Of a DNA stretch of 64,000 nucleotides, positions 5,677 through 58,057 are shown in pieces. This stretch comes from an uncultured Candidatus Saccharibacteria bacterium (GTDB lineage Bacteria; Patescibacteriota; Minisyncoccia; UBA6257; 2-01-FULL-56-20): contig CAYWDX010000001.1 of NCBI GenBank assembly GCA_964456235.1, forward strand, positions 35,074 through 99,073, read 5' to 3'. The notes under the pieces are model-generated. The model was given only the letters and a program-made list of their open reading frames with translations, had not been told where the DNA came from and made no database searches. How positions within the stretch are numbered: position 1 is the stretch's first letter; each line of letters opens with the position of its first letter. A program made the translations under genes and the position numbers.

Positions 5677-6780
5677 CTATTCGCTTTCGCCTGCCAATTC
5701 TTCCAAAATCTTCTTCGCCCGTGCGCCCAATTTTTTTGGCGTTTTGACGATAAAATCAACGTAGAGCTCGCCACGGCCGTTCGTTCCAAAATTCGGCATC
5801 CCCTCGTTCGGAATGCGGAGGTTTCCTTTCAAATTGAATCCGGCCGGAATTTCGACAGAAATTTTTCCGCCCGAGATGGTCGGCACTTCTAATTTTCTGC
5901 CGAGCAAGAGGTCGATGAGTTTCACTTCGCGCGTCACAATAAGATTGCTGCCTTCGCGCAGGAATGTTTGATGCGGTTTGATCGAAACCCGCAGATAAAG
6001 ATCGCCCGCCGCCGTGCCGCGCTCGCCCGCCTCGCCCATGCCCTTGATTTTGATGAGCTGGCCGTCGGCAATGCCGGGCAGAATGTCGACTTTCACATCC
6101 CGGTTTGCATCCACGCGTCCCACGCCCCTGCACGTTCCACAAGCTTTCTTCGGAATCTCGCCGGCGCCATGGCATTTTTCGCACGCCTTCACCTGGGCAA
6201 AATTCCCGAAAAAGGTGCGCTTCTGTTCGCGGACTTCGCCCCGGCCGTCGCACGTCCCACATTTTTCAAAACCACTTCCCGCCTCCGCGCCCTTCCCGCC
6301 GCATTTTTCACAGGCGACGAGCGTGCGCAAGCGGAATGTTTTCGTGACGCCGCGGAATGCTTCTTCTAACGTAATTTCTTCGCGCAATTCTAAATCGGCG
6401 CCGCGTTCATACGTTTTGCGCCGCGGGCGCATGCCGATGCCTTCGAAAAATGATTCGAAAACGTCGCCGAGGTCACCCATGTCGCCGAAACCCTGCGACG
6501 GATCGAAACCAAAACCCTCAAAGCCGGCACCATTGCCGAACCCGCCGAATCCTCCAAAGCCATTGGAACCGGACTCGGCGTTTCCGAAACGGTCATAGTG
6601 GGTGCGCCGCGCCTTATCCGAAAGGACTTGGTACGCCTCGTTAATTTCCTTGAACTTCGCCTCATTCCCGCCCGGTTTATCCGGGTGGTATTGGTGCGCG
6701 AGCTTTCGATAGGCCTTCTTTATTTCGTCGTCCGTGGCCGATTTGGTTACGCCGAGTATGTGGTAATAATCTTTTGCCAT
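5677..6780 (-). CDS. dnaJ: Chaperone DnaJ
   Basis: J-domain with HPD ([12 protein letters not shown]), a G/F region and four CxxCxGxG zinc-finger repeats. The start is taken at [11 protein letters not shown]. Confidence 0.9.
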
Positions 6781-6857
6781 CGTGGTATATAGTACACCGC
6801 TAAGATTAAAAAACAATTAATGCCGACTTGACATCATGAAGAACGGCCGCGGGCGGC

Positions 6858-7883: not shown

Positions 7884-9702
7884 TCCCTTTATTATAGAAC
7901 GCCTGGCCGATTTTTTGAATCTCCGCGGAGAGGGCGCTCGTTGCATCCTGGATCGCGGCGAGATCCTCCCCGTCTTTCGCCTTTTTGAGAGCTTCCAATT
8001 TTTCCGTCACGGTCGTTTTTACATCAGCCGGAACCTTGTCTCCCCCATCCTTCAACGCCTTTTCGCTCGTGTAGATGAGCGACTCCGCCTGGTTACGCGC
8101 TTCAATCACCTCCTTGTGCTTCGCGTCTTCGGCCGCGTGCTCGGCTGCATCTTTTTTCATTTTTTCAATGTCTGCTTTCGAAAGATTGGTGGAGGCCTCG
8201 ATCTTCACCGATTGCGTTTTGCCCGTACCTTTATCTTTTGCGGATACATTCAGGATGCCGTTCGCATCAATATCAAAACTCACTTCCACCTGCGGCATGC
8301 CGCGCGGGGCCGGCGGAATTCCATCGAGAATGAAATTTGCGAGCGTCTTATTATCTTTTGCCATCGGCCGTTCGCCTTGGAGCACATGGACCTCGACCGA
8401 GGTCTGGTTGTCGGCTGCCGTGCTGAAAACCTGCGTCTTCGCCGTCGGCACGGTCGTGTTCTTTTGGATCATGGGCGTCGCGACGCCGCCGAGCGTCTCA
8501 ATGCTCAAGGTGAGCGGCGTCACATCGAGGAGCAGAATATCTTTCACGTCTCCCTGTAAAATTCCTGCCTGCACTGCGGCGCCAACCGCGACCACCTCAT
8601 CCGGGTTGATGCCCTGATGCGGATCTTTCCCGAAAAGTTTTTTCACCGCTTCCTGCATCGCCGGCATGCGCGTTTGGCCGCCGACCAAAATGACTTCGTT
8701 GATTTCGGAGAGCTGGAACCCAGCGCCTTTCGGTGCGGTCGCAGTCACTGTTTCTTTCGTGAGCGCGATCGAGCGCTCGATGTATTCCCCGACGAGCGAC
8801 TCGAGTTTTGCGCGCGTGATTTTCATGACGAAATGTTTTGGCCCGTCGGTGCCAGAGGTGATATAGGGCAAATTCACTTCGGTTTCCATCGCCGTTGAAA
8901 GTTCGTGCTTGGCTTTTTCTGCGGCTTCCTTCAAGCGCTGGAGCGCAAGCGGATCTTTCGAAACATCAACACCCTCTTGCTTTTTGTATTCCTCAACAAG
9001 ATACTGCTGGATCTTTTTGTCGAAGTCGTCGCCGCCGAGGTGCGTGTCGCCGCCCGTCGCCTTCGCTTCAACCGTGTCATCGCCCACCTCGAGTACCGAG
9101 ATGTCGAAGGTTCCGCCACCGAAGTCGTAGACGACAATTTTTTCACTTTTTTGCTTATTGAGGCCGTAGGCAAGCGCGGCCGCCGTCGGTTCGTTGATAA
9201 TGCGCCGCACCTTGAGACCCGCGATCTCGCCCGCATTTTTCGTCGCCTGGCGCTGCGAGTCGTCGAAATATGCCGGCACCGTGATCACCGCCTCTTCCAC
9301 TTTTTCGCCGAGCTTCGCCTCGGCGTCCGCCTTCAACTTGCCAAGAATAAATGCAGAAATCTCTTCGGGCGAATACCACCGGTCGCCCATTTTGACTTCG
9401 ACGCCGCCCGCCGCGTTCGCTTGAATATCATAAGGAAGCCACGCCTTGTCACGCGCCACCTCCTCGTCGGTAAACTTGCGGCCGATAAGGCGCTTCACTG
9501 AAAAGATGGTGTTTTTTGGATTCGTGACCGACTGGCGCTTCGCGAGCAATCCCACCAAGCGCTCGCCATTCTTTGAGATCGCCGCAATCGAAGGCGTCGT
9601 GCGATTGCCCTCCGTGTTTTCCAAGATGCGCGGTTCGCCGCCTTCGGTGACCGCAACCGCCGAGTTTGTCGTACCCAAGTCAATCCCTAAAATTTTTGCC
9701 AT
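7822..9702 (-). CDS. dnaK: Chaperone DnaK (Hsp70)
   Basis: [26 protein letters not shown] and the remaining Hsp70 signatures are present. Confidence 0.95.
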
Positions 9703-9723
9703 GTTTTAATAAATTTTTAATGT

Positions 9724-10200
9724 TTATTTTTGCTTACTCACGATAACCCGCGCCGCCCGCAATACTTTTTCGTGGAGTTTGTATCCTGGCTCCACCACTT
9801 CCACGATTGATCCAGGCGGGGCCGATGCTGATTCCACTTCGGTGAGCGCTTCGGCGGTATTCGGGTCAAACGGATCGCCTGGCTTCATGTCTATTTTTTG
9901 CAGCCCTCGCTTTTTCAAAATATCTTCGATCTGCGTGCGGATGAGATACACCCCCTTCTCCACCGGCCCCGCTTTTTCGAGCGATCGAAGGCCGAGGTCA
10001 AAATTGTCGAGTACGGTGATTAAATCTTTAATGAGATCTTCGCTCCCGAACCGCGCGACTTCTTGCAAGTGTTCATATTCCTCTTTCCGATAGTTGATAA
10101 AGTCGGCTTTCGCGCGCTGCCAGCCAGCCAAGTATTCGTCGCGCTGCTTCTCGGCGGCGGCGAGTTGCGACTCTTCTTCTTTTTTTATCTCATCGGGCAT
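9724..10200 (-). CDS. grpE: Nucleotide exchange factor GrpE
   Basis: GrpE coiled-coil and C-terminal beta domain (KADFINYRKEE...DPNTAEAL). Sits in the hrcA-grpE-dnaK order. Confidence 0.85.
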   Translation of the reverse strand: MPDEIKKEEESQLAAAEKQRDEYLAGWQRAKADFINYRKEEYEHLQEVARFGSEDLIKDLITVLDNFDLGLRSLEKAGPVEKGVYLIRTQIEDILKKRGLQKIDMKPGDPFDPNTAEALTEVESASAPPGSIVEVVEPGYKLHEKVLRAARVIVSKQK

Positions 10201-10226
10201 ATTTTTTTTCTTTAATAAATCTTTAA

Positions 10227-10910
10227 TTAAAAATTCCTAAAGATCCTGATGACCTTTTTATAGTCCATCCTCTTCGGGCCGATTGCGAAAATCGAAATGG
10301 TCCCATCGCCAAAATCAAAATTGCCGCCGACAACCGCAAGATGCTCGCTGCGCGTCACCGGGCTTTTGCGGCCGATGAACACCTTGAGGCCCTCGCCCAC
10401 CTTGCCCGCAACGCGCGGGATCCGCTCATCCATATCCTCAAAGTCCCGGATCACCGACTGAAGCTCGTCACGATTCTGCCATTCGAGGCGTTCAACGAGC
10501 GCTTCGAGACCGGCCTTGTAAACCGTTTCCTGCGTGAGATCGGCCGCAACGCCAAGAAGGCCGAGCTCGCGGGAAATTCGAGCGGAAAGTTCTGCCCATG
10601 CATGTTCCTCGAGAAGTTCGCGGAGCGTTGATTCGCGAGGCGCGGGGCGCGCGTTTTCGTGCGCGAGTGCGGTCTGCATCAAGCGGTCCGCTAAAAATTC
10701 ATAGCCAGCGTCGGTGGGAATGCGGCCCGCCGAGTGGTGGGGCTGCATGAGGTAATCCGCATCTTCCAGCGCGTCGAGCTCGAGGCGGATCATCGCCGGC
10801 TTGATGCCAAAATCGAAATTATCAAAAAGCCATCCCGAGCTGATCGGTTCGCCGGTCGTGATAAAGCCCTGGATTGCTGCTTCTAAAATTTGCGCGGTGC
10901 GGTCGGTCAT
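10227..10910 (-). CDS. hrcA: Heat-inducible transcription repressor HrcA (short form, 227 aa)
   Basis: N-terminal winged helix (QILEAAIQGFITTGEPISS) and C-terminal IGPKRMDYKKVI. Operon context with a CIRCE-like site upstream. Confidence 0.75.
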   Translation of the reverse strand: MTDRTAQILEAAIQGFITTGEPISSGWLFDNFDFGIKPAMIRLELDALEDADYLMQPHHSAGRIPTDAGYEFLADRLMQTALAHENARPAPRESTLRELLEEHAWAELSARISRELGLLGVAADLTQETVYKAGLEALVERLEWQNRDELQSVIRDFEDMDERIPRVAGKVGEGLKVFIGRKSPVTRSEHLAVVGGNFDFGDGTISIFAIGPKRMDYKKVIRIFRNF

Positions 10911-25846: not shown

Positions 25847-26314
25847 CTACGGGGCGCTGCCGAATCTCACCGACACTCGGAGTTCGCCTGCATTCTGCGG
25901 CAGTCCGGAGGGATTATCTTTTTCAAACACGACGGCGCCCGTCGCATAGCGCGGCGTGCGGAAAGAAATCGTTGCGGCGAATGGAACCGTGCCGGTCGTC
26001 ATCCATGCGCCAGATCCGCCTTCGGCAGTCGCGTGGCCTTGGCCGATGATAGTCCCGTCCGCATCCAAAATTTTGATTGGGAAAGACGCCTCAAAGAACC
26101 ATCCTCCGCCGGTAACTGATCCGGCGAGCGTGACCGGCGAGGAGATGACGGCCCCCGCGGCCGGGGCGGTCACCGTAAGGTGCCTATCGGCCGATACAAT
26201 CGGTGCTGACCCAGAAGTGGTCGGGCCTTTTACTGATGGGACGAAAATCAAGACGCCCAAAAGAATAAGGATGATAACCGCAAGGGCGATGACGATGGTG
26301 CGCGCGATTTTCAT
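25847..26314 (-). CDS. Hypothetical membrane-anchored exported protein
   Basis: N-terminal TM anchor and a Gly/Thr-rich beta-type body. No recognised family. Confidence 0.5.
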   Translation of the reverse strand: MKIARTIVIALAVIILILLGVLIFVPSVKGPTTSGSAPIVSADRHLTVTAPAAGAVISSPVTLAGSVTGGGWFFEASFPIKILDADGTIIGQGHATAEGGSGAWMTTGTVPFAATISFRTPRYATGAVVFEKDNPSGLPQNAGELRVSVRFGSAP

Positions 26315-26353
26315 ATTTTTTTAATTAAAATTTTATAAAAGTGCCGCTTTTTC

Positions 26354-26620
26354 TCAAAACGCGCCTTCCTGTTTAAGAATTTTTAATTTCGCGGCGCGGC
26401 CGCGCGCATAGCCGCCCGGATCGCCATCCGACCGCACCACACGATGGCACGGCACGCGCTTCGTATCCGGATTGTTATGCATGATATTCCCAACCGCCCG
26501 GTAGGCGTGCGGACTCCCCGCTCGGCGCGCTACTTCTCGGTAGGTAAGCGTTTTCCCGCGCGGAATCTTTGCCACCACGTCGTAGACTTTTTCGGTGAAG
26601 GATTTTTGAATCGTGGCCAT
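26354..26620 (-). CDS. MGMT-family DNA-binding domain protein (Ogt C-terminal domain only)
   Basis: Active-site motif PCHRVV and a helix-turn-helix. The N-terminal domain is absent. Confidence 0.75.
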   Translation of the reverse strand: MATIQKSFTEKVYDVVAKIPRGKTLTYREVARRAGSPHAYRAVGNIMHNNPDTKRVPCHRVVRSDGDPGGYARGRAAKLKILKQEGAF

Positions 26621-26927: not shown

Positions 26928-28319
<1,392 letters not shown>

Positions 28320-28331
28320 TTAATTAAAAAA

Positions 28332-29267
28332 TTATGAAAGCGCCTGGGCGCCTGACGTCACCTCGATCAGTTCGCGCGTGATCGCCGCCTGGCGCGATTT
28401 ATTGTACTCGACCGTGAGTCCCTCGGAAAGTTCTGACGCGTTGTCCGAGGCATTTTTCATCGCCACGCGCCGCGCCGAATGTTCAGAGGCGTTTGCTTCA
28501 AGAATGGCATGATAGAGACGCGTCCTCAAAAGTTGCGGCGCGAGCTCTTCGAGCACCTCCTGCGCCGACGGCTCGATGAGGCAGTCGCGCTCCCCGACCT
28601 CGAAAAATGATTCTGATTTTACATATTCGGAATACCGGCCGGCGCGCGGAATCGTTTCCTCAATCGTTTGTTTGATTGCGCCGTAGGTCACCGGCAAAAA
28701 TTCGCGGGCGACCGCATCTTGCCGAAGCGCCGTCACGAAGAGCGTGTAGAATACCATCACGCTATCGAAATCGCCGCGGACATATCCGTTCACCAAAAAA
28801 TTGGCAATCGGTTCCACTTCAGCACGCTCGGTGTAGTCGCCCACGCGGGTAAAACTCGTCACGACAGGCAACTTTTTTCGCTCCAGATAACTCTTTGCTT
28901 TTTGGCCGATGGCCACGTAAACGTTTGCTGGGTCGCGCATATTAATGTGGTGCTCTGCAACGAACGACTCGAATTTTCGAATCACCGCGCCATTGAACGA
29001 ACCGGCCAATCCCCGATCCGACGTCACGAGCACATGCAGCGTCTTTGCCACCGGGCGTGAGTGCATGATCGCGGGCATCGGCACGTTTGCGAGCTCCGAA
29101 AGGATTCCGAGAAGCTCAAGCGCGGCGTAGGAATAAGGGCGCGAGGCGAGCGCGAGCTCTTGGCTCCGCCGCATCTTGGTCGCCGCGACGAGCTCCATCG
29201 CCTTCGTGATCTGCCCGATATTTTGGACGCTCTTCATGCGCCGCTTGAGATTTTGCACTGATTCCAT
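28332..29267 (-). CDS. atpG: ATP synthase F1 gamma subunit
   Basis: Operon position and conserved N- and C-terminal helices. Confidence 0.85.
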   Translation of the reverse strand: MESVQNLKRRMKSVQNIGQITKAMELVAATKMRRSQELALASRPYSYAALELLGILSELANVPMPAIMHSRPVAKTLHVLVTSDRGLAGSFNGAVIRKFESFVAEHHINMRDPANVYVAIGQKAKSYLERKKLPVVTSFTRVGDYTERAEVEPIANFLVNGYVRGDFDSVMVFYTLFVTALRQDAVAREFLPVTYGAIKQTIEETIPRAGRYSEYVKSESFFEVGERDCLIEPSAQEVLEELAPQLLRTRLYHAILEANASEHSARRVAMKNASDNASELSEGLTVEYNKSRQAAITRELIEVTSGAQALS

Positions 29268-34520: not shown

Positions 34521-35565
34521 TTACGGCAGCGCCTCAAGCTCGGCCTCGATAAAAAGATCGAGATCGCCGGCGAGGACGTTTTGGACTTTCGCAGTTTCAG
34601 CATCCGTGCGATGGTCTTTCACGAGCTGATACGGGTTGAGCACGTAGGAGCGCAGCTGGTTCCCCCATTCCGGTTTTATTTTCGTGCGTACATTGCCGAT
34701 CTCTGCAATTTTTTCTTTCTCCATGAGGTTGTACAATTTCGCCTTGAGCATTTTGAGCGCGTATTCACGATTCTGTGCTTGCGAGCGCTGCGCCTGCGAG
34801 CTCACGGCGATGCCGCTTGGGATGTGCACGACGCGCACGGCCGTCTCCACTTTATTTACGTTTTGGCCGCCGGGGCCGCCGGATCGATAGAACTCGAATT
34901 TGAGGTCGCGTTCAGGAATTTCGAGTTTCGATTCTTCAAGAGCGGGGAGGTCAGGAATCACTTCGACGAGCGCGAACGAAGTGTGGCGCAATTGTTTTGG
35001 GGAAAACGGGGAGATGCGGACCAGGCGGTGCACGCCGGATTCGCGCCGAAGGTAACCGTAGGCGTGATCGCCGCTTAACTCGACCGTGCGCGAGCGCGGA
35101 TTGTCGTCAATCACTTTTATTTTCCATCCCCGATTGCGGGCATAGTTTTCGTACATGAGCGCGAGCATCCGCCCCCAGTCTTCGGCGTCTTCCCCTCCGG
35201 CGCCCGGATACACCGCAAGCACCGCGGCCTGTTTATCATAACGGCCGGTAAAAAGCTGTTGGAGCTCGATTTCTTTTAATTTTTTCTTGATTTCGGCAAG
35301 TTTTTTTTCATTAAAATTTTCTAAAAGTTCTGCGGCGCCGGTTTCGATCGCTTTGAAGCGCGCCACAAGATCGTTCAATATCCCGAGCTCGCGAATTTTT
35401 CCATCAATCTTTTCGCGATCTTTCGACTCCCAAAAACCAGGGGCGGCCATCTCGGCCTCCAATTCTTTCACCCGAGCCTCCTTCGTCGCTACCTCAAAGA
35501 CGCCCGCCTAATCGGCGGGCAGCCGCTCCCAATTCTTCTAATTCTTTTTTAATATCTTCTTTCAT
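34521..35565 (-). CDS. prfB: Peptide chain release factor 2, requiring a programmed +1 frameshift at CUU UGA (35499-35494)
   Basis: Main ORF contains SPF and GGQ motifs. An upstream in-frame ATG at 35565 gives MKEDIKKELEELGAAARRLGGRL then TGA. The GGCGGG-CGU-CUU-UGA-G context mirrors the E. coli prfB shift site, and the +1 frame continues into the main ORF. Confidence 0.85.
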
Positions 35566-43796: not shown

Positions 43797-43853
43797 GGCG
43801 AGCTCTTCTCTTTTCTTTTCGGTTTCTTTAATTATAAGTTAATGAAGGATTCA

Positions 43854-44615
43854 TTAAATTTCCGTGAGCACGCGCGGGCCGCGTTTCGTGATCGCAACCG
43901 TGTGTTCGAAATGCGCTGCATAAGAGCCGTCGGCCGTCGCGTAACTTTCATCTTCGATTTGCACCAGTTCGCCGCGGCCCACCACAAACATGGGCTCGAT
44001 CGCGATCACCATGCCTTCCTGTAACGGCTCGCCCTCTCCGGGTCGCCCGAAATTGAAAACGGTCGGATCTTCGTGCAGCATCTTCCCAATTCCGTGCCCC
44101 GTGAGGCCTTCCGCGACCGTAAGCCCGTTTTTTTTCGCCACTTTAGCAATCGCCGCTCCCACATCTCCCAACGTGTTGCCGATCTTTGCGGCGGCAATGC
44201 CGGCGACGAGCGCTTCATGCGTTCCCGCGATGAGTTTTTGCACTTTGCGGTCCTGCTTACCAGCCGCAACCGTCACCGCCGTGTCGCTATAGAAACCTTG
44301 GTAGCGAAGCCCGAGGTCCAGCTTCAGAATTTCTCCGTCCTGCACGACGCGGCCGGAGGGCTGGCCATGCACCACCACTTCGTTGAATGAGGTGCAGAGC
44401 GTGTACGGATACGCGCGCCGGGCGCCGGCGGGGCGGTAATTCAAAAACGCGGGCTTCGCTCCCGCTTTGTGGATGAGTTGGTAGGCAAGGCGATCGAGTT
44501 GCTTGGTGGTTACCCCGGCGCGGACTTCGGATGCGAGCTCGTCCAGAATTTGCGCCAGGCGCCGACCGCCCTCCGCCATGATTTCTATTTCATCGGGCGT
44601 TTTTAATGTGAGCAT
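43854..44615 (-). CDS. map: Methionine aminopeptidase type I
   Basis: Pita-bread fold metal ligands in D...D...H...E...E arrangement. Start taken at MLTLKTPDEIEIM. Confidence 0.85.
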   Translation of the reverse strand: MLTLKTPDEIEIMAEGGRRLAQILDELASEVRAGVTTKQLDRLAYQLIHKAGAKPAFLNYRPAGARRAYPYTLCTSFNEVVVHGQPSGRVVQDGEILKLDLGLRYQGFYSDTAVTVAAGKQDRKVQKLIAGTHEALVAGIAAAKIGNTLGDVGAAIAKVAKKNGLTVAEGLTGHGIGKMLHEDPTVFNFGRPGEGEPLQEGMVIAIEPMFVVGRGELVQIEDESYATADGSYAAHFEHTVAITKRGPRVLTEI

Positions 44616-55474: not shown

Positions 55475-55506
55475 GGTAAAAATAAAAATTCCGGCATTCA
55501 CCGGAA
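55475..55506 (-). promoter_or_regulatory. Terminator/attenuator-like hairpin plus U-tract in the rplC leader
   Basis: Minus strand reads ttccgg-tgaatg-ccggaa followed by TTTTTATTTTTA, ending 1-3 nt before the rplC ATG. Confidence 0.45.
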
Positions 55507-55623
55507 GTTCACGCACCGCCACCGATACCCCATCATTACATGGGATTTTTACTTAAGATAAACGCTCCTCGTCCTCCTAAGCGGGTAGTGATTTGCATGA
55601 AACTTCCGAGAAACCTTGTGCAG

Positions 55624-55653
55624 AGTCTATCAAATTTTGCGGTTAACTGTCAA
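55624..55653 (-). promoter_or_regulatory. Sigma70-like promoter for the rplC operon (TTGACA-N18-TAGACT)
   Basis: -35 at 55653-55648 and -10 at 55629-55624 on the minus strand. Confidence 0.5.
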
Positions 55654-55665
55654 TTATGGTATATT
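55637..55665 (+). promoter_or_regulatory. Divergent promoter TTGCGG-N17-TATATT
   Basis: Positioned back to back with the rplC promoter. Would drive a transcript of about 85 nt ending at the 55718 hairpin. Confidence 0.4.
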
Positions 55666-55717
55666 GAGGGGAGCACTCAGGTAGTCTTGTGGAGCACGCG
55701 AAGGTCCCCCCCACCCG

Positions 55718-55752
55718 AAGCCGCGGCGCAAGTCGCGGCTTTTCCTTTTATT
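55718..55752 (+). terminator. Hairpin terminator, copy A of a twin GCAA-tetraloop element
   Basis: aagccgcggc-gcaa-gtcgcggctt (10-bp stem with one G.U pair) followed by TTCCTTTTATT. Confidence 0.6.
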
Positions 55753-55772
55753 AAAAATTTATTAAGAAAATG

Positions 55773-55801
55773 TTGACTTTGTGATGAGTGCGTGCTAATG
55801 T
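55773..55801 (+). promoter_or_regulatory. Promoter TTGACT-N17-TAATGT for the small membrane protein gene
   Basis: Hexamers at 55773-55778 and 55796-55801. The GGGGGTGGAG RBS follows at 55821-55830. Confidence 0.5.
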
Positions 55802-55831
55802 ATGGGCAGTAAGTACCTTAGGGGGTGGAGC

Positions 55832-56116
55832 ATGAAAGCGCGCCGTCGACGCTTCTTCGCTTGGGCCATGGTGGCAGTAGCTGCAATCTTCGCGAGCTTC
55901 GTGATACCGTTCGTCCTCCTGAAGTTCCGCGTCCCGGCGGACAACGGGGTGATCTGGACAACGGTCAACGGATTGAGCGCCGTGAGTATCCTTGCGGGCG
56001 TGTGCATCCTTTATCGGATCGCCGTCGAAAGGGAGACCCTGAATCTCATGGAGTCCCAGCTGGCCGATCGGTACAATCGGCGGCGCGAGGTCCACAACGC
56101 CTGGCTCTTTGGTTAG
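55832..56116 (+). CDS. Small membrane protein (94 aa, two TM helices, Arg-rich N-terminus) inserted between rpsJ and rplC
   Basis: ATG at 55832 sits 5 nt after a strong SD. The first in-frame ATG at 55802 abuts the -10 box and so is probably not translated. Own promoter and terminator. No recognised family. Confidence 0.55.
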   Translation: MKARRRRFFAWAMVAVAAIFASFVIPFVLLKFRVPADNGVIWTTVNGLSAVSILAGVCILYRIAVERETLNLMESQLADRYNRRREVHNAWLFG

Positions 56117-56132
56117 TAAACCCAACAACCAA

Positions 56133-56166
56133 AAGCCGCAGCGCAAGCTGCGGCTTTTTCTTTTTC
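56133..56166. terminator. Bidirectional hairpin terminator, copy B of the twin element
   Basis: aagccgcagc-gcaa-gctgcggctt followed by TTTCTTTTT on the plus strand and TTTTGGTTGTTGGGTTT on the minus strand. Confidence 0.65.
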
Positions 56167-56178
56167 TGCCAAGGGTCA

Positions 56179-56316
56179 TAGAAAAGTCTTTCGAGGGGGC
56201 TCTCGGAGGCGCTCGCAGCTTGGTCTTTCGCGAAGCGGAAGTGCGAGCGCTGAGAGAGCAGGGTGGCTCGTGCCGCTGGAGCACGAGAACACCCGTACCC
56301 GAGAAAGACTTTTCTA
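56179..56316. repeat. MITE-like structured inverted-repeat element (12-bp terminal inverted repeats, 14 bp with the flanking TA; two internal hairpins), abutting the rpsJ stop codon
   Basis: tagaaaagtctttc at 56179-56192 is the exact reverse complement of gaaagacttttcta at 56303-56316. Inner hairpins: gctctc-ggag-gcgctcgca/tgcgagcgc-tga-gagagc (56199-56259) and gggtg-g-ctcgtgc/gcacgag-aa-caccc (56261-56295). Confidence 0.5.
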
Positions 56317-56643
56317 GACCATCTTCACCTCCACGTCGACACCGGCGGGAAGATTCAAGTTTGAAAGTGATTCGATGATCTTCTGGCTCGGATTCATGAT
56401 CTCCACGAGGCGTTTGTGCACGCGGAGTTCGAACTGCTCGCGCGAATCCTTATGGACGAATGTCGAGCGGTTCACGGTGTAGTGCTTGATTTCGGTCGGC
56501 AACGGAATCGGGCCCACCACTTTAGCATCGTTGCGCTCGGCGGCTTCAATGATTTGGCGCGCCGAGGTATCGATCAATTTGTGATCGTAGGATTTGATTC
56601 GCAAACGGACTTTCTGGAGAACTTCCGATTCCTTTTTTGCCAT
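56314..56643 (-). CDS. rpsJ: 30S ribosomal protein S10
   Basis: Sequence identifies S10. It lies immediately downstream of tuf. Confidence 0.95.
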
Positions 56644-56644
56644 A

Positions 56645-57844
56645 TTACTTGACGATCTTCGTTACAACGCCGGCGCCTACGGTTTTGCCACCCTCGCGGA
56701 TAGCGAAGCGCTGCTTCTCTTCGAGCGCCACGGGACTGATGAGCTTCACGGTAAGCTTCACCGTGTCGCCCGGCATGACCATTTCCATGCCATCCGGCAA
56801 GGTCACTTCGCCCGTCACATCCGTCGTACGGATGTAGAACTGCGGCTTGTAACCCTTGAAGAACGGCGAGTGACGGCCACCTTCCTCTTTCGAGAGCACG
56901 TAGACTTCGGTTTCGAATTCCGAGTGCGGCGTTACCGTTCCCGGTTTCGCGATCACCTGACCGCGCTCAACGTCTTCCTTCTTCAAGCCGCGGAGCAAGG
57001 CGCCAACGTTGTCGCCGGCCATACCTTCATCCAACAGCTTGTTGAACATTTCAATACCGGTGATGACGGTCTTCACCGTCGGGCGGAGACCAACGATCTC
57101 AACTTCCTCGTTCACCTTCACCTTGCCACGTTCCACGCGGCCCGTAACGACGGTACCGCGGCCTTCGATCGAGAAGATATCTTCGATCGGCATAAGGAAC
57201 GGCTTGTCGAGTTCGCGCGTCGGCGTCGGGAAATATTCATCCATCGCCGCAACGAGGTCCAAGATCGGTTTTGCGTCGGCGTCGTCACCGGAAGCCGCGT
57301 TCAATGCCTTCAAGGCCGAGCCGCGGATCACCGGCGCTTTGTCGCCGTCGAACTGATATTTCTTCAAGAGCTCGCGGACTTCAGATTCCACGAGGTCGAT
57401 GAGTTCTGGATCATCCACTTGGTCGCACTTGTTCAAGAACACAATAATGTTCGGGACGCCTACCTGGTGCGCAAGCAAGATGTGCTCCCGCGTCTGCGGC
57501 ATCGGACCATCCGTGGCCGCAACGACGAGGATCGCGCCGTCCATCTGGGCGGCACCCGTGATCATGTTTTTGATGTAGTCAGCGTGGCCCGGAGCGTCGA
57601 TGTGCGCATAGTGGCGCTTCGCCGACTCGTATTCCGAGTGGTGAAGGGCGATCGTGATGCCACGCGCCTTTTCTTCCGGAGCGTTGTCGATCTGGTCAAC
57701 TGCTTCCTCTTTTTTTGCCAAACCCTTTTTGAACAACACGTGCGTGATCGCGGCGGTCAGGGTCGTCTTGCCGTGATCCACGTGGCCGATCGTACCCACG
57801 TTCAAGTGGGGCTTTGATCGATCAAATTTTTCCTTTTCTGCCAT
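56645..57844 (-). CDS. tuf: Elongation factor Tu
   Basis: [15 protein letters not shown] and NKCD motifs. Confidence 0.95.
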
Positions 57845-58021
57845 TTGTTTTTTAGAATTTTTTAATGTTTATTTAACAATCATGACAATCGATCGAACAA
57901 ACAGAAGATGAGGCAAAGCCCCATCTCGTGCGGGTTGCTAGGCCGCTCTTTTCACTTTCCTATCAACCAGGAGATTAGCCAATCGACCCGAAAGTTCCCC
58001 TCGATGCAGGAAGTACCAAGG

Positions 58022-58051
58022 CATTCTATGGCAGAACTCCGGTTTTTGTCA
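58022..58051 (-). promoter_or_regulatory. Near-consensus promoter TTGACA-N18-TAGAAT upstream of tuf
   Basis: -35 at 58051-58046 and -10 at 58027-58022 on the minus strand. Lies about 170 nt upstream of the tuf ATG. Confidence 0.5.
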
Positions 58052-58057
58052 AATATT

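What the first reader, a model, noticed from the sequence alone, without database searches (positions are those of the whole stretch)
56179..56316. MITE-like 134-nt element with 12-bp perfect terminal inverted repeats and TA flanks, supplying the last base of the S10 stop codon
gaaaagtctttc at 56181-56192 is the exact reverse complement of gaaagacttttc at 56303-56314, and both are flanked by TA. A TA target-site duplication is typical of IS630/Tc1-mariner derived MITEs. The interior folds into two strong hairpins. The rpsJ stop codon (TAG on the minus strand, 56316-56314) is formed by the TA flank plus the terminal C of the element. The region could therefore be a non-autonomous mobile element, a highly structured 3' UTR, or a ncRNA.
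Basis: partly seen in the sequence, partly recalled or inferred. Interest (0 to 1): 0.65.

Follow-up and report, generated by a model that had tools for sequence, protein, structure and literature searches.

The report
Dispersed palindromic insertion element of Patescibacteria
The 138-base inverted-repeat structure right after the S10 gene is one copy of a previously unannotated, multi-copy, three-armed palindromic element that is scattered through the genomes of tiny groundwater bacteria (Patescibacteria), even in frame inside essential genes, much like the "selfish" palindromic elements of Rickettsia.

Summary
Exact 12-bp arms (14 bp with the TA) close a 138-nt structure that overlaps the rpsJ stop codon (fold z about -8).

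It is not an IS630/mariner MITE. Among about 131 distinct homologues, the closing stem is unrelated in sequence between copies, TA flanks do not recur, and there is no copy-specific target duplication.

It belongs to a large family with no Rfam match, found in Patescibacteria (Paceibacteria). The shared fold is a three-way junction with conserved unpaired motifs: loop U-CCAGC-G, bulge ACCAAGC, and CUCUCG/CUCCGAGAGC. Its helices covary strongly (93% paired against about 42% in slid controls).

- Up to three copies occur per contig, in both orientations and without their own promoter.
- Copies lie 3-20 nt after stop codons of unrelated housekeeping genes and next to tRNAs.
- One copy sits beside a group I intron inside a 16S gene. 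Others fill apical loops of other palindromic repeats.
- Nine copies lie in frame inside intact mnmA, recG, prf, pgm, lpxB and parB genes.
- A clean empty site exists (rplW-rplB: 5 nt in L077, 145 nt in L074).
- Helices are almost purely Watson-Crick, and stop codons are depleted.

Best reading: a new family of Rickettsia-palindromic-element-like selfish insertions. Here it sits where relatives have the rpsJ terminator. How it moves is unknown.

The parts
56179..56316 (-). Whole element (138 nt): one copy of the three-way-junction palindromic family, read 5'->3' on the minus (rpsJ) strand, the strand that carries the family's conserved motifs
   Evidence: CM R1/R2 141-171 bits; fold z -7.8/-8.5; only copy in the 64-kb window
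56303..56316 (-). P1 5' arm (UAGAAAAGUCUUUC); its first three bases are the rpsJ stop codon UAG (56316-56314)
56179..56192 (-).
56195..56197 (-). P1b 3' side (CCC), pairs with GGG at 56298-56300; base of the junction
   Evidence: pairs covary GC/AU in the family
56261..56294 (-). P2 hairpin; loop CCAGC (56275-56279) closed by a near-invariant U.G pair (125 of 128 copies)
56199..56259 (-). P3 arm: P3a (GCUCUC/GAGAGC) with internal loop UCA/CUCC, P3b, P3c hairpin, and conserved 3' bulge ACCAAGC (56218-56224)
56314..56643 (-). rpsJ (ribosomal protein S10); its stop codon overlaps P1
   Evidence: Pfam Ribosomal_S10 on the identical Logan contig
56131..56165 (.). GC-rich hairpin with T runs on both sides. 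It is called as a terminator for the + strand small ORF. It probably also ends the tuf-rpsJ-element transcript on the minus strand (inferred).
58023..58052 (-). Sigma-70-like promoter (TTGACA-18-TAGAAT) upstream of tuf, likely driving tuf-rpsJ and the element as a 3' UTR
55624..55653 (-). Separate sigma-70-like promoter (TTGACA-18-TAGACT, TG-extended) for rplC, showing that the S10 operon is split after rpsJ

Best explanation
The element is one copy of a new family of dispersed, non-coding, about 125-150-nt palindromic insertion elements of Patescibacteria (Parcubacteria/Paceibacteria).

Architecture. The family is defined by a conserved core, not by conserved termini. The core is a three-way junction (P1b, P2, P3a-c) with about 30 conserved unpaired nucleotides. 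A long closing stem (P1, 12-30 bp) differs in sequence from copy to copy.

Behaviour. It behaves like the Rickettsia palindromic elements (RPEs). Copies appear at new places in the genome, in either orientation. They survive where a self-contained stem-closed module does little harm: just past stop codons or tRNA ends, often where a terminator hairpin would be; in apical loops of other structured repeats; beside an intron in a 16S rRNA gene; and in frame in surface regions of proteins.

In this window the copy lies where the nearest relative has a plain rpsJ terminator hairpin. It is presumably transcribed as the 3' end of the tuf-rpsJ mRNA.

Shown: family membership, covariation, multi-copy dispersal, an empty site, in-frame copies, and the absence of a target duplication, conserved terminal repeats or promoters.

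Inferred: that the copies arise by insertion (mobility); that the folded core, as single-stranded DNA or RNA, is what the unknown mobilising machinery recognises; and that the closing stem is what makes insertions tolerable by keeping the flanks adjacent. The insertion mechanism itself is unknown.
For: - Family: model R2 finds 9 copies in 81 rpsJ loci of GTDB species and 129 matches in 120 metagenome loci retrieved by a motif pattern. There is no Rfam family.
- Structure: 93% of cells are paired against 36-47% when partners are slid. 47-49 of 51 pairs show changes on both sides.
- Multi-copy on single contigs, in both orientations: L168 (3 copies); L098, L119, L124, L140, L090, L105, L186, L177, L170 and L182 (2 each).
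- Diverse contexts: stop codons of fusA, clpP, atpC, gyrA, rplL, rpoD, greA, pnp, ahpC, murA, ftsZ, rpsJ and rplW lie 3-20 nt upstream. Other copies lie next to tRNAs and inside a 2685-nt 16S gene, 38 nt from a group I intron. Others are nested in place of the apical hairpin of two other repeat families.
- Empty against filled site: L077 has rplW-TAA-AAATT-ATG-rplB, while L074 has a 145-nt spacer holding the element.
- Non-orthologous copy in a relative: the window core is 92.6% identical to L206. L206 has an unrelated 22-bp P1 and sits at a locus homologous to window 35.9-37.1 kb.
- Nine copies lie in frame in intact mnmA, recG, prf, pgm, lpxB-lpxK and parB genes, in both orientations.
- Stop-free frames are 51% sense and 36% antisense, against 36% and 24% in dinucleotide shuffles.
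- Helices are about 93% Watson-Crick. Outside the one invariant U.G pair, core G-U (66) is no more common than A-C (70).
- There is no promoter reading into the element from either side.
- In L002 (S10 93% identical) the matching position carries a simple terminator whose outer stem (TAGAAAAGTC...GATTTTTC) and downstream CCTTGGC match the window's P1 and flank.
- RPE behaviour for comparison is taken from review PMC10969869.
Against: - No mobilising enzyme, autonomous parent or target duplication was found, so mobility is inferred only from distribution.
- Selfish DNA does not usually keep about 30 unpaired nucleotides and a branched fold conserved across such divergent genomes. That degree of conservation is more typical of a functional RNA or ribozyme.
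- The 5' end lies strikingly close to stop codons of co-directional genes (25 of 45 within 3-20 nt), while the 3' end is less tightly placed in antisense cases. This hints at a transcript-level or translation-level link.
- Copies after rpsJ in four related species (window, L004, L006, L009) could reflect vertical retention of a useful 3' UTR.
- The 120 metagenome copies were selected with a pattern that requires the conserved motifs, so conservation of those motifs is partly built into the sample.
- Only 64 kb of this genome was seen, and it holds a single copy.
Confidence: 0.65

Rival explanations
1. A host-beneficial structured RNA: a cis-acting 3'-UTR or intercistronic module. It might be a protein-binding or exonuclease-blocking cap, an RNase III or RNase P processing 'punctuation' signal, or a self-cleaving ribozyme. 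On this view it is kept after rpsJ and other highly expressed genes because it shapes mRNA ends. Dispersal would be secondary, as with REP elements.
For: - Covariation is very strong and the unpaired motifs are conserved.
- The 5' end lies 3-20 nt after stop codons or tRNA 3' ends in most co-directional cases.
- Four species carry it right after rpsJ, and several carry it after fusA.
- Some copies have P1 flanked by A and T runs like terminators, for example L111, L137 and L127.
- A long P1 is a plausible RNase III substrate, as shown for Correia elements (PMC10969869).
Against: - About 40% of copies are antisense to the flanking genes: -- 18 and -+ 10 against ++ 26 and +- 15.
- There are no promoters of their own.
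- Intact copies are translated in frame inside six different conserved genes, in both orientations.
- Helices show no G-U excess over A-C, unlike typical functional RNAs.
- The closest relatives (L002, L003, L005, L007, L008) lack the element after rpsJ and have plain terminators.
Confidence: 0.2
2. A classical MITE derived from an IS630/Tc1-mariner transposon. The 12-bp terminal inverted repeats would be bound by a transposase, and the TA on each side would be the duplicated target.
For: Exact 12-bp inverted ends with TA on both sides in this copy. The family is multi-copy and dispersed.
Against: - Termini are not conserved: P1 identity between copies is 0.33, which is background.
- Flanking dinucleotides are mostly TC/TT, and TA is rare.
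- There is no copy-specific direct repeat at the junctions.
- The empty and filled pair L077/L074 shows no TA duplication.
- No transposase gene recurs within 2.5 kb of 120 loci.
- TA...TA is explained as two more base pairs of the stem.
Confidence: 0.03
3. Nothing special: an unusually long intrinsic terminator, or a chance inverted repeat downstream of rpsJ.
For: Relatives have terminator hairpins at this position. A 12-bp inverted repeat at this spacing is expected about 0.5 times per 64 kb by chance (my arithmetic).
Against: About 130 homologues share the branched core and motifs at unrelated loci. The fold z is -8. The terminator scan does not call the element, and a separate hairpin with T runs follows it.
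Confidence: 0.01

Closest known systems
Rickettsia palindromic elements (RPEs; 'selfish DNA in protein-coding genes')
   Same: Both are non-coding palindromic repeats of about 100-150 bp in a reduced-genome, host-dependent bacterial lineage. Both are multi-copy and dispersed. Both are found in intergenic regions and in frame within unrelated housekeeping genes without destroying them. In both, no transposase or mechanism is known (RPE facts from PMC10969869; this family).
   Different: There is no sequence relationship to RPEs that I could test. The host phylum is different. The fold here is a branched three-way junction with conserved unpaired motifs and a sequence-variable closing stem. It persists with compensatory changes across many divergent species. 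Copies also nest in the loops of other repeats and lie beside a 16S rRNA intron.
Bacterial MITE-like repeats that act in transcripts (ERIC, Correia/NEMIS, pneumococcal BOX/RUP/SPRITE)
   Same: All are small, structured, repeated elements found in transcribed intergenic regions, often at the 3' ends of genes and in either orientation. Elements can insert into one another. Long stems can be RNase III targets (PMC10969869).
   Different: Those families have conserved terminal inverted repeats, and often target duplications (TA for several, from my own knowledge). Here the termini vary, no duplication is detectable, and it is the interior that is conserved.
rRNA intervening sequences and uncharacterised short insertions in CPR rRNA genes
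   Same: All are stem-closed inserts sitting at the tops of helices of structural RNAs. Tsurumaki et al. report many short (<200 bp) rRNA insertions in CPR bacteria that are neither introns nor ORF-bearing (PMC11270868). One copy of this family lies inside a 16S gene.
   Different: This family is mostly outside rRNA. The 16S copy lies within the inserted segment, 38 nt upstream of the group I intron match, rather than in a mature rRNA helix. Excision by RNase III is untested.
REP/REPIN elements mobilised by RAYT (IS200/IS605-like) transposases
   Same: Both are extragenic palindromes downstream of genes, multi-copy and structure-dependent. Both plausibly act as folded single strands. Near-exclusive Watson-Crick pairing fits DNA-level folding.
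   Different: In REPINs the conserved part is the stem (the REP sequence) and the loop varies, which is the opposite of this family. No RAYT-like gene was seen nearby. REPs are not found in frame in genes.

Membership tests
IS630/Tc1-mariner-derived MITE | Terminal inverted repeats conserved in sequence among copies (the transposase binding sites) | tested here: not met
   P1 5'-arm identity between copies is 0.33 (background) for core identities of 0.5-0.9. Window against L206: P2 0.92, P3b 1.0, P1 0.36.
IS630/Tc1-mariner-derived MITE | TA target-site duplication flanking each copy | tested here: not met
   Flank dinucleotides are mostly TC/TT, with TA in 4 of 92 downstream flanks. The junction longest common substring is 3.73 against 3.53 +/- 0.12 for shuffled pairs. 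L077/L074 shows no TA duplication.
IS630/Tc1-mariner-derived MITE | Multi-copy, dispersed, non-coding, <300 bp | tested here: met
   About 131 distinct copies, up to 3 per contig.
IS630/Tc1-mariner-derived MITE | A cognate autonomous IS with matching ends in the same genomes | not testable with these tools
No transposase recurs among 433 ORFs within 2.5 kb.
RPE-like palindromic elements (functional class, not sequence family) | Palindromic repeat of about 100-150 bp, multi-copy in a reduced genome | tested here: met
RPE-like palindromic elements (functional class, not sequence family) | Copies inserted in frame in unrelated conserved protein genes that stay intact | tested here: met
   mnmA (3 copies), recG, PCRF/RF-1, PGM/PMM, lpxB-lpxK and parB (2 copies). 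Full-length Pfam architectures are interrupted only by the insert.
RPE-like palindromic elements (functional class, not sequence family) | Sequence homology to a described Rickettsia RPE family | not tested
   No RPE library is available. The phylum is different, so homology is not expected. It is therefore filed as 'works like', not as a member.
Any described RNA family (Rfam 15) | Match to a curated covariance model | tested here: not met
   No hit at gathering score in the window. Only terminator-like or miRNA-like chance hits at E<=10 in 55500-56700. Nothing on five host loci at E<=0.01.
Functional single-strand RNA (generic) | G-U pairs clearly more common than A-C mismatches in helices; consistent orientation with transcription | tested here: not met
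   Core G-U 66 against A-C 70 once the single invariant U.G is set aside; P1 32 against 91. 28 of 69 copies have an opposite-strand gene upstream.
Intrinsic terminator | GC-rich hairpin followed directly by a T run | tested here: not met
   The element is not called by the scan. The terminator-like hairpin is the separate one at 56131-56158. Some other copies do have terminator-like outer stems.
rRNA intervening sequence (IVS) | Insert in an rRNA helix that RNase III removes without ligation | tested here: inconclusive
   One copy lies in a 16S gene, but within the inserted segment 38 nt from the group I intron match. Cleavage is not testable.
Integron attC site | R''/R' core sites (RYYYAAC ... 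GTTRRRY) at the ends of an imperfect palindrome | tested here: not met
   Read directly from the sequence: the ends are TAGAAAAG...CTTTTCTA here and vary elsewhere, with no GTTRRRY.

The most novel reading that the evidence does not exclude
The conserved three-way-junction core may be an active nucleic-acid machine rather than passive selfish DNA. It could be a new small ribozyme, or a folded single-strand recognition module for a structure-specific nuclease or recombinase. Either would catalyse or direct its own insertion into hairpin loops and just downstream of stop codons and tRNA ends. That would be a mobility mechanism with no terminal repeats and no target duplication. It would explain why the interior is conserved and the ends are not, and why copies nest in the apical loops of other palindromic repeats.
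Probability: 0.15. Interest if true: 0.85.

Novelty: new variant of a known kind. Interest (0 to 1): 0.62.

Why it matters
Palindromic elements that insert in frame into essential genes have been treated as a peculiarity of Rickettsia. Finding an unrelated family with the same habit in Patescibacteria suggests the phenomenon recurs in reduced, host-dependent genomes.

The family is unusual in three ways. Its interior fold is conserved rather than its ends. That fold is a covarying three-way junction. And it nests in other repeats and lies beside an rRNA intron. Together these point to a structure-dependent, still unknown way of spreading.

Practical consequences:
- A covariance model of this family would clean up annotation of CPR genomes, which now carry spurious ORFs (such as the 177-aa ORF across this copy), 'unexplained' rRNA and protein insertions, and split operons.
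- It would provide a marker for strain-level presence/absence polymorphism.

Tried and rejected
Identities tested and rejected
- Known RNA families. Rfam at gathering and permissive thresholds gave only chance hits to terminators and miRNA hairpins.
- 5S, SRP, 6S, tmRNA, hammerhead, TPP and glycine-riboswitch resemblances were considered by eye and dropped, because motif order or size did not fit and Rfam was silent.
- RNase P RNA as the host of nested copies. I suspected this from 'GGGCAGGGTGCC', but Rfam found nothing at E<=0.01. The host is a separate repeat of about 120 nt.
- An independent sRNA gene. There is no sigma-70 promoter enrichment on either side.
- A phage or viral origin. A loose pattern gave 8 chance hits in IMG/VR and none was confirmed. 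The specific pattern gave 0 hits. There was no blastn match in phage genomes.

Tests that gave no signal or could not decide
- Target-site duplication: none beyond a recurrent flank motif.
- The recurrent 'GCTC ... TCGCT' flanks were first taken as a target site. The L077/L074 pair shows that they belong to the insert.
- An associated protein. Clustering 433 neighbouring ORFs showed only EF-G recurring.
- Strand choice by folding energy. The reverse complement is more stable in 78 of 92 copies. This reflects G/U-rich loops and does not decide the strand.

Technical dead ends
- MAFFT alignment of window against L002 downstream of rpsJ was uninformative, so the comparison was made by eye.
- Other long-range inverted repeats in the window lie in ORFs with weak z-scores and are not this family.
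- Literature searches found no description of this element.

Full report
**1. The observation**

The sequence is as described. GAAAAGTCTTTC (56181-56192) is the exact reverse complement of 56303-56314, and each arm is flanked by TA. TA is self-complementary, so the perfect stem is really 14 bp. With two internal-loop bases and GGG/CCC it continues to 19-nt arms.

rpsJ (S10) is the minus-strand ORF 56314-56643, and its TAG stop (56316-56314) forms the first three bases of the stem. Both strands fold into a long closing stem on a three-way junction with two hairpins. MFE is -70.9 kcal/mol (z -7.8) on the rpsJ strand and -82.9 (z -8.5) on the other, and no shuffle folds as well. An identical copy of the locus exists on a Logan contig.

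Rfam finds nothing, either at gathering score in the window or at E<=10 locally. The only hits are chance matches to the neighbouring terminator and to miRNA hairpins.

**2. The local setting**

The S10 protein places the organism in Patescibacteria (Paceibacterota/Parcubacteria), with a best match of 93%.

- A sigma-70-like promoter precedes tuf (58052-58023).
- tuf and rpsJ are adjacent.
- The element follows rpsJ directly.
- A GC-rich hairpin with T runs on both sides comes next (56131-56165).
- rplC has its own promoter (55653-55624).

Between rpsJ and rplC lies an opposite-strand 104-aa ORF flanked by two similar terminator hairpins. In the 80 nearest species the rpsJ-rplC spacing ranges from about 30 to 2474 bp. 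The closest relatives (L002, L003, L005, L007, L008) have a plain terminator hairpin right after rpsJ.

**3. It is a family, and the 'TIR' is a helix**

Three relatives (L004, L006, L009) carry a fold of the same shape 6-11 nt after the rpsJ stop, with completely different closing-stem sequences but shared unpaired motifs.

I built a covariance model from the window copy (R1) and then from five copies (R2). R2 finds nine copies in the 81 rpsJ loci:
- one between rplW and rplB (L074);
- one antisense between rpsJ and rplC (L012);
- copies upstream of tuf (L031, L029, L050).

A motif pattern was scanned over metagenome contigs: CTCCAGCGG N{10,22} YCTC N{18,48} ACCAAGC N9 CTSCGR. The model gave 86 and 43 matches in them, in all but a few of the loci. 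This gives about 131 distinct sequences.

On 83 distinct sequences, 92.9% of cells form standard pairs, against 39-45% when partners are slid. 49 of 51 pairs change on both sides. The 9-sequence set gives 93.1% and 47 of 51 pairs.

The conserved unpaired nucleotides are:
- J1/2, (A)ACC;
- the P2 loop CCAGC, closed by an almost invariant U.G pair;
- P3a, (A/C)UCUCG opposite CUCCGA(G/U)AGC;
- the 3' bulge ACCAAGC.

**4. Tests of the MITE reading**

- P1 is not conserved. The identity of its 5' arm between copies is 0.33, which is background, for core identities up to 0.9. The window and L206 share P2 at 0.92 and P3b at 1.0, but P1 at only 0.36.
- Flanking dinucleotides are mostly TC/TT. TA is rare.
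- Direct repeats across the two junctions are no longer than in mismatched pairings: 3.73 against 3.53 +/- 0.12.
- A recurrent flank, 'GCTC | P1...P1' | TCGCT', belongs to the insert itself. The empty site in L077 is rplW-TAA-AAATT-ATG-rplB. L074 has TGA-ATGCTC-[P1...P1']-TCGCTT-AAAAATTTTTT-ATG.
- No transposase recurs among 433 neighbouring ORFs.

The IS630/mariner interpretation with a TA duplication therefore fails. The broader idea of an inserted, repeated, non-autonomous element does not.

**5. Evidence that it is a dispersed insertion rather than a host RNA gene**

- Several contigs of 7-14 kb carry two or three copies, in both orientations.
- Orientation relative to neighbours is ++ 26, -- 18, +- 15 and -+ 10.
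- No promoter reads into the element from either side.
- The upstream genes are unrelated housekeeping genes: fusA, clpP, atpC, gyrA, rplL, rpoD, greA, pnp, ahpC, murA, ftsZ, pilB-like, rpsJ and rplW.
- Other copies abut tRNAs.
- One copy lies inside a 2685-nt 16S rRNA gene, immediately after ...GGATTAGAG and 38 nt upstream of a group I intron.
- Two other palindromic repeat families ('host A' and 'host B') exist with a simple apical hairpin in some copies. In other copies the three-way-junction element stands in place of that hairpin.
- A relative (L206) carries a 92.6%-identical core at a different locus, homologous to window 35.9-37.1 kb. Its flanking tRNA is 96% identical and its flanking gene 83% identical. 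The window has no copy at that locus.

The most telling point is that nine copies lie in frame, without stops, inside intact genes:
- mnmA (L138, L146, L099), recG (L130), a class-I release factor (L132) and a phosphoglucomutase (L196), in the sense orientation;
- lpxB-lpxK (L155) and parB (L197, L204), in the antisense orientation.

Pfam shows full-length domain architectures interrupted only at the insert. Stop-free reading frames are strongly enriched across the family: 51% sense and 36% antisense, against 36.3 +/- 2.2% and 24 +/- 1.7% in dinucleotide-preserving shuffles.

The helices are almost purely Watson-Crick. Apart from the single invariant U.G, G-U pairs are not more frequent than A-C mismatches in the core (66 against 70), and they are rarer in P1 (32 against 91). 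That is unlike a typical single-stranded functional RNA. It fits a constraint acting on both strands or on DNA.

**6. What it most likely is and does**

The behaviour matches that described for Rickettsia palindromic elements. Those are palindromic repeats of about 150 bp, dispersed in a reduced genome, frequently in frame in unrelated genes, with no known mobilising enzyme (review PMC10969869). They also share features with ERIC/Correia-type repeats: 3'-UTR location, nesting, and long stems that RNase III can cut (same review).

I therefore read the window feature as one copy of a new, RPE-like family of selfish palindromic insertions in Paceibacteria.

In the window it sits in the rpsJ terminator region. 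L002 has TAGAAAAGTC-CCGCTTCGGCGG-GATTTTTCGCTACCTTGGC where the window has TAGAAAAGTC-TTTCTC[core]TCGAAA-GACTTTTCTATGACCCTTGGC. The outer P1 here looks like a former terminator stem with the core in place of its top. This homology is read by eye, because MAFFT did not help.

Three points are inferred rather than shown. The long closing stem keeps the flanks next to each other, which would explain tolerance in tight operon junctions, RNA loops and protein loops. The folded core is what an unknown machinery recognises. The copy is transcribed as the tuf-rpsJ 3' UTR.

**7. What does not fit neatly**

- Selfish DNA rarely keeps about 30 unpaired nucleotides and a branched fold across such divergent hosts.
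- The 5' end is much closer to co-directional stop codons (25 of 45 within 3-20 nt) than the 3' end is to antisense stop codons.
- Copies recur after rpsJ and fusA.

These points keep alive a host-useful RNA role, or an active ribozyme-like or recombination-guide role for the core. The metagenome sample was selected on the conserved motifs, which inflates their apparent invariance. Mobility is inferred from distribution only.

**8. Novelty**

No Rfam family matches. Four literature searches found no description. The nearest mention is that CPR rRNA genes contain many short, uncharacterised, non-intron and non-ORF insertions (PMC11270868).

The kind of element, a palindromic repeat or RPE-like selfish DNA, is known. 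This family and its architecture are new: a conserved three-way-junction interior, variable ends, no target duplication, and nesting. I rate it a new variant of a known kind, with interest of about 0.6.

Noticed in passing
window 55700-56170: A 104-aa opposite-strand ORF (55802-56116, probably a small membrane protein; only a sub-threshold Pfam YLATT hit) sits between rpsJ and rplC. It has a TTGACT...TAATGT promoter-like site (my reading) and is bracketed by two approximately 80%-identical terminator hairpins (55717-55742 and 56131-56158). It looks like an inserted cassette that splits the S10 operon.
   Followed up: partly
L002-L081 (rpsJ loci): The rpsJ-rplC spacing is highly variable in this clade (about 30 to 2474 bp). 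tuf-rpsJ ends in its own terminator in the nearest relatives, so the classical S10 operon is broken after rpsJ and the gap is an insertion hot spot.
   Followed up: partly
window 55522-55625 and L002 3380-3620: The rplC leader downstream of its own promoter is conserved between the window and L002 (AAGGTTTC(C)TCGGAAG.TT.ATG...). It may be a ribosomal-protein autoregulatory leader that replaces the usual S10 leader.
   Followed up: no
L147 2000-2130, L154, L156 1235-1330 and 12790-13041, L126 4900-4990 and 5150-5400, L159 2650-2740, L177 4500-4560, L116/L205, L151, L106, L117, L176, L191: A second stem-closed structured repeat family ('host A': GAGCGGGCAnGGT [apical hairpin] GAGCGAGC ... CCTCGCTGGGG ... 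GGTAGC/GATAGCG). It has no Rfam match. Its apical hairpin is either simple or is replaced by the three-way-junction element.
   Followed up: partly
L121 4930-4990, L193 850-910, L102 6640-6830, L119 2680-2870 and 11750-11930: A third repeat family ('host B': ACGGAAGCGCA [apical hairpin] GTGAGCGGGTTGAAGAAAT, closed by a stem of about 24 bp). It also occurs with either a simple hairpin or the three-way-junction element at its tip.
   Followed up: partly
L050 1530-1660 against L059 1640-1670: The tuf 5' leader of L050 carries a further stem-closed insert of about 115 nt (AGGACTTTC...GGAAAGTCCT). It is absent from the 92%-identical relative L059. It belongs to a different palindromic family.
   Followed up: no
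L003 3365-3520; L018 3322-3540: Other relatives have different long inverted-repeat structures right after rpsJ: 30-bp arms in L003 and 19-bp arms in L018. Their interiors are unrelated to this family.
   Followed up: no
L125 5396-8080: A 16S rRNA gene of 2685 nt. It has a group I intron (6357-6796) inserted near the E. coli position of about 790, and the palindromic element lies immediately 5' of it inside the same insertion.
   Followed up: partly
L031 117-400: A full copy (192-327) is followed by a partial second copy (about 325-379, ACCAAGC...CTCCGAGAGC). The element's 5' end (AAGTAGGCTCGGACTCTTC) is also duplicated about 55 nt upstream. This suggests local rearrangement or tandem insertion.
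   Followed up: no
L090 6294-6393; L105 4101-4199; L170 3261-3358: Short variants (about 100 nt) keep P1, the junction and CUCUCG/CUCCGAG but lack the CCAGC loop and the ACCAAGC bulge. One lies between a tRNA-Arg and what looks like the 3' half of another tRNA.
   Followed up: no
window 9700-10250, 26300-26390, 28296-28344, 35294-35331, 43815-43863, 55746-55772, 57849-57886: An AT-rich motif (TTTAATAAATTTTTAATTAAAA-like) recurs in intergenic regions of an otherwise GC-rich window. It is probably a promoter-upstream element of this organism.
   Followed up: no
L002 3328-3355: After its stop codon, L002 has a degenerate duplicate of about 25 nt of the rpsJ 3' end (AAAGATGGGTTTTTAG against AAGATGGTATAG), located before the terminator.
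   Followed up: no
window 55751-56284 (minus): A 177-aa ORF runs through most of the element and antisense to the small ORF. It is an artefact of the family's stop-codon depletion and could be mis-annotated as a gene.
   Followed up: partly
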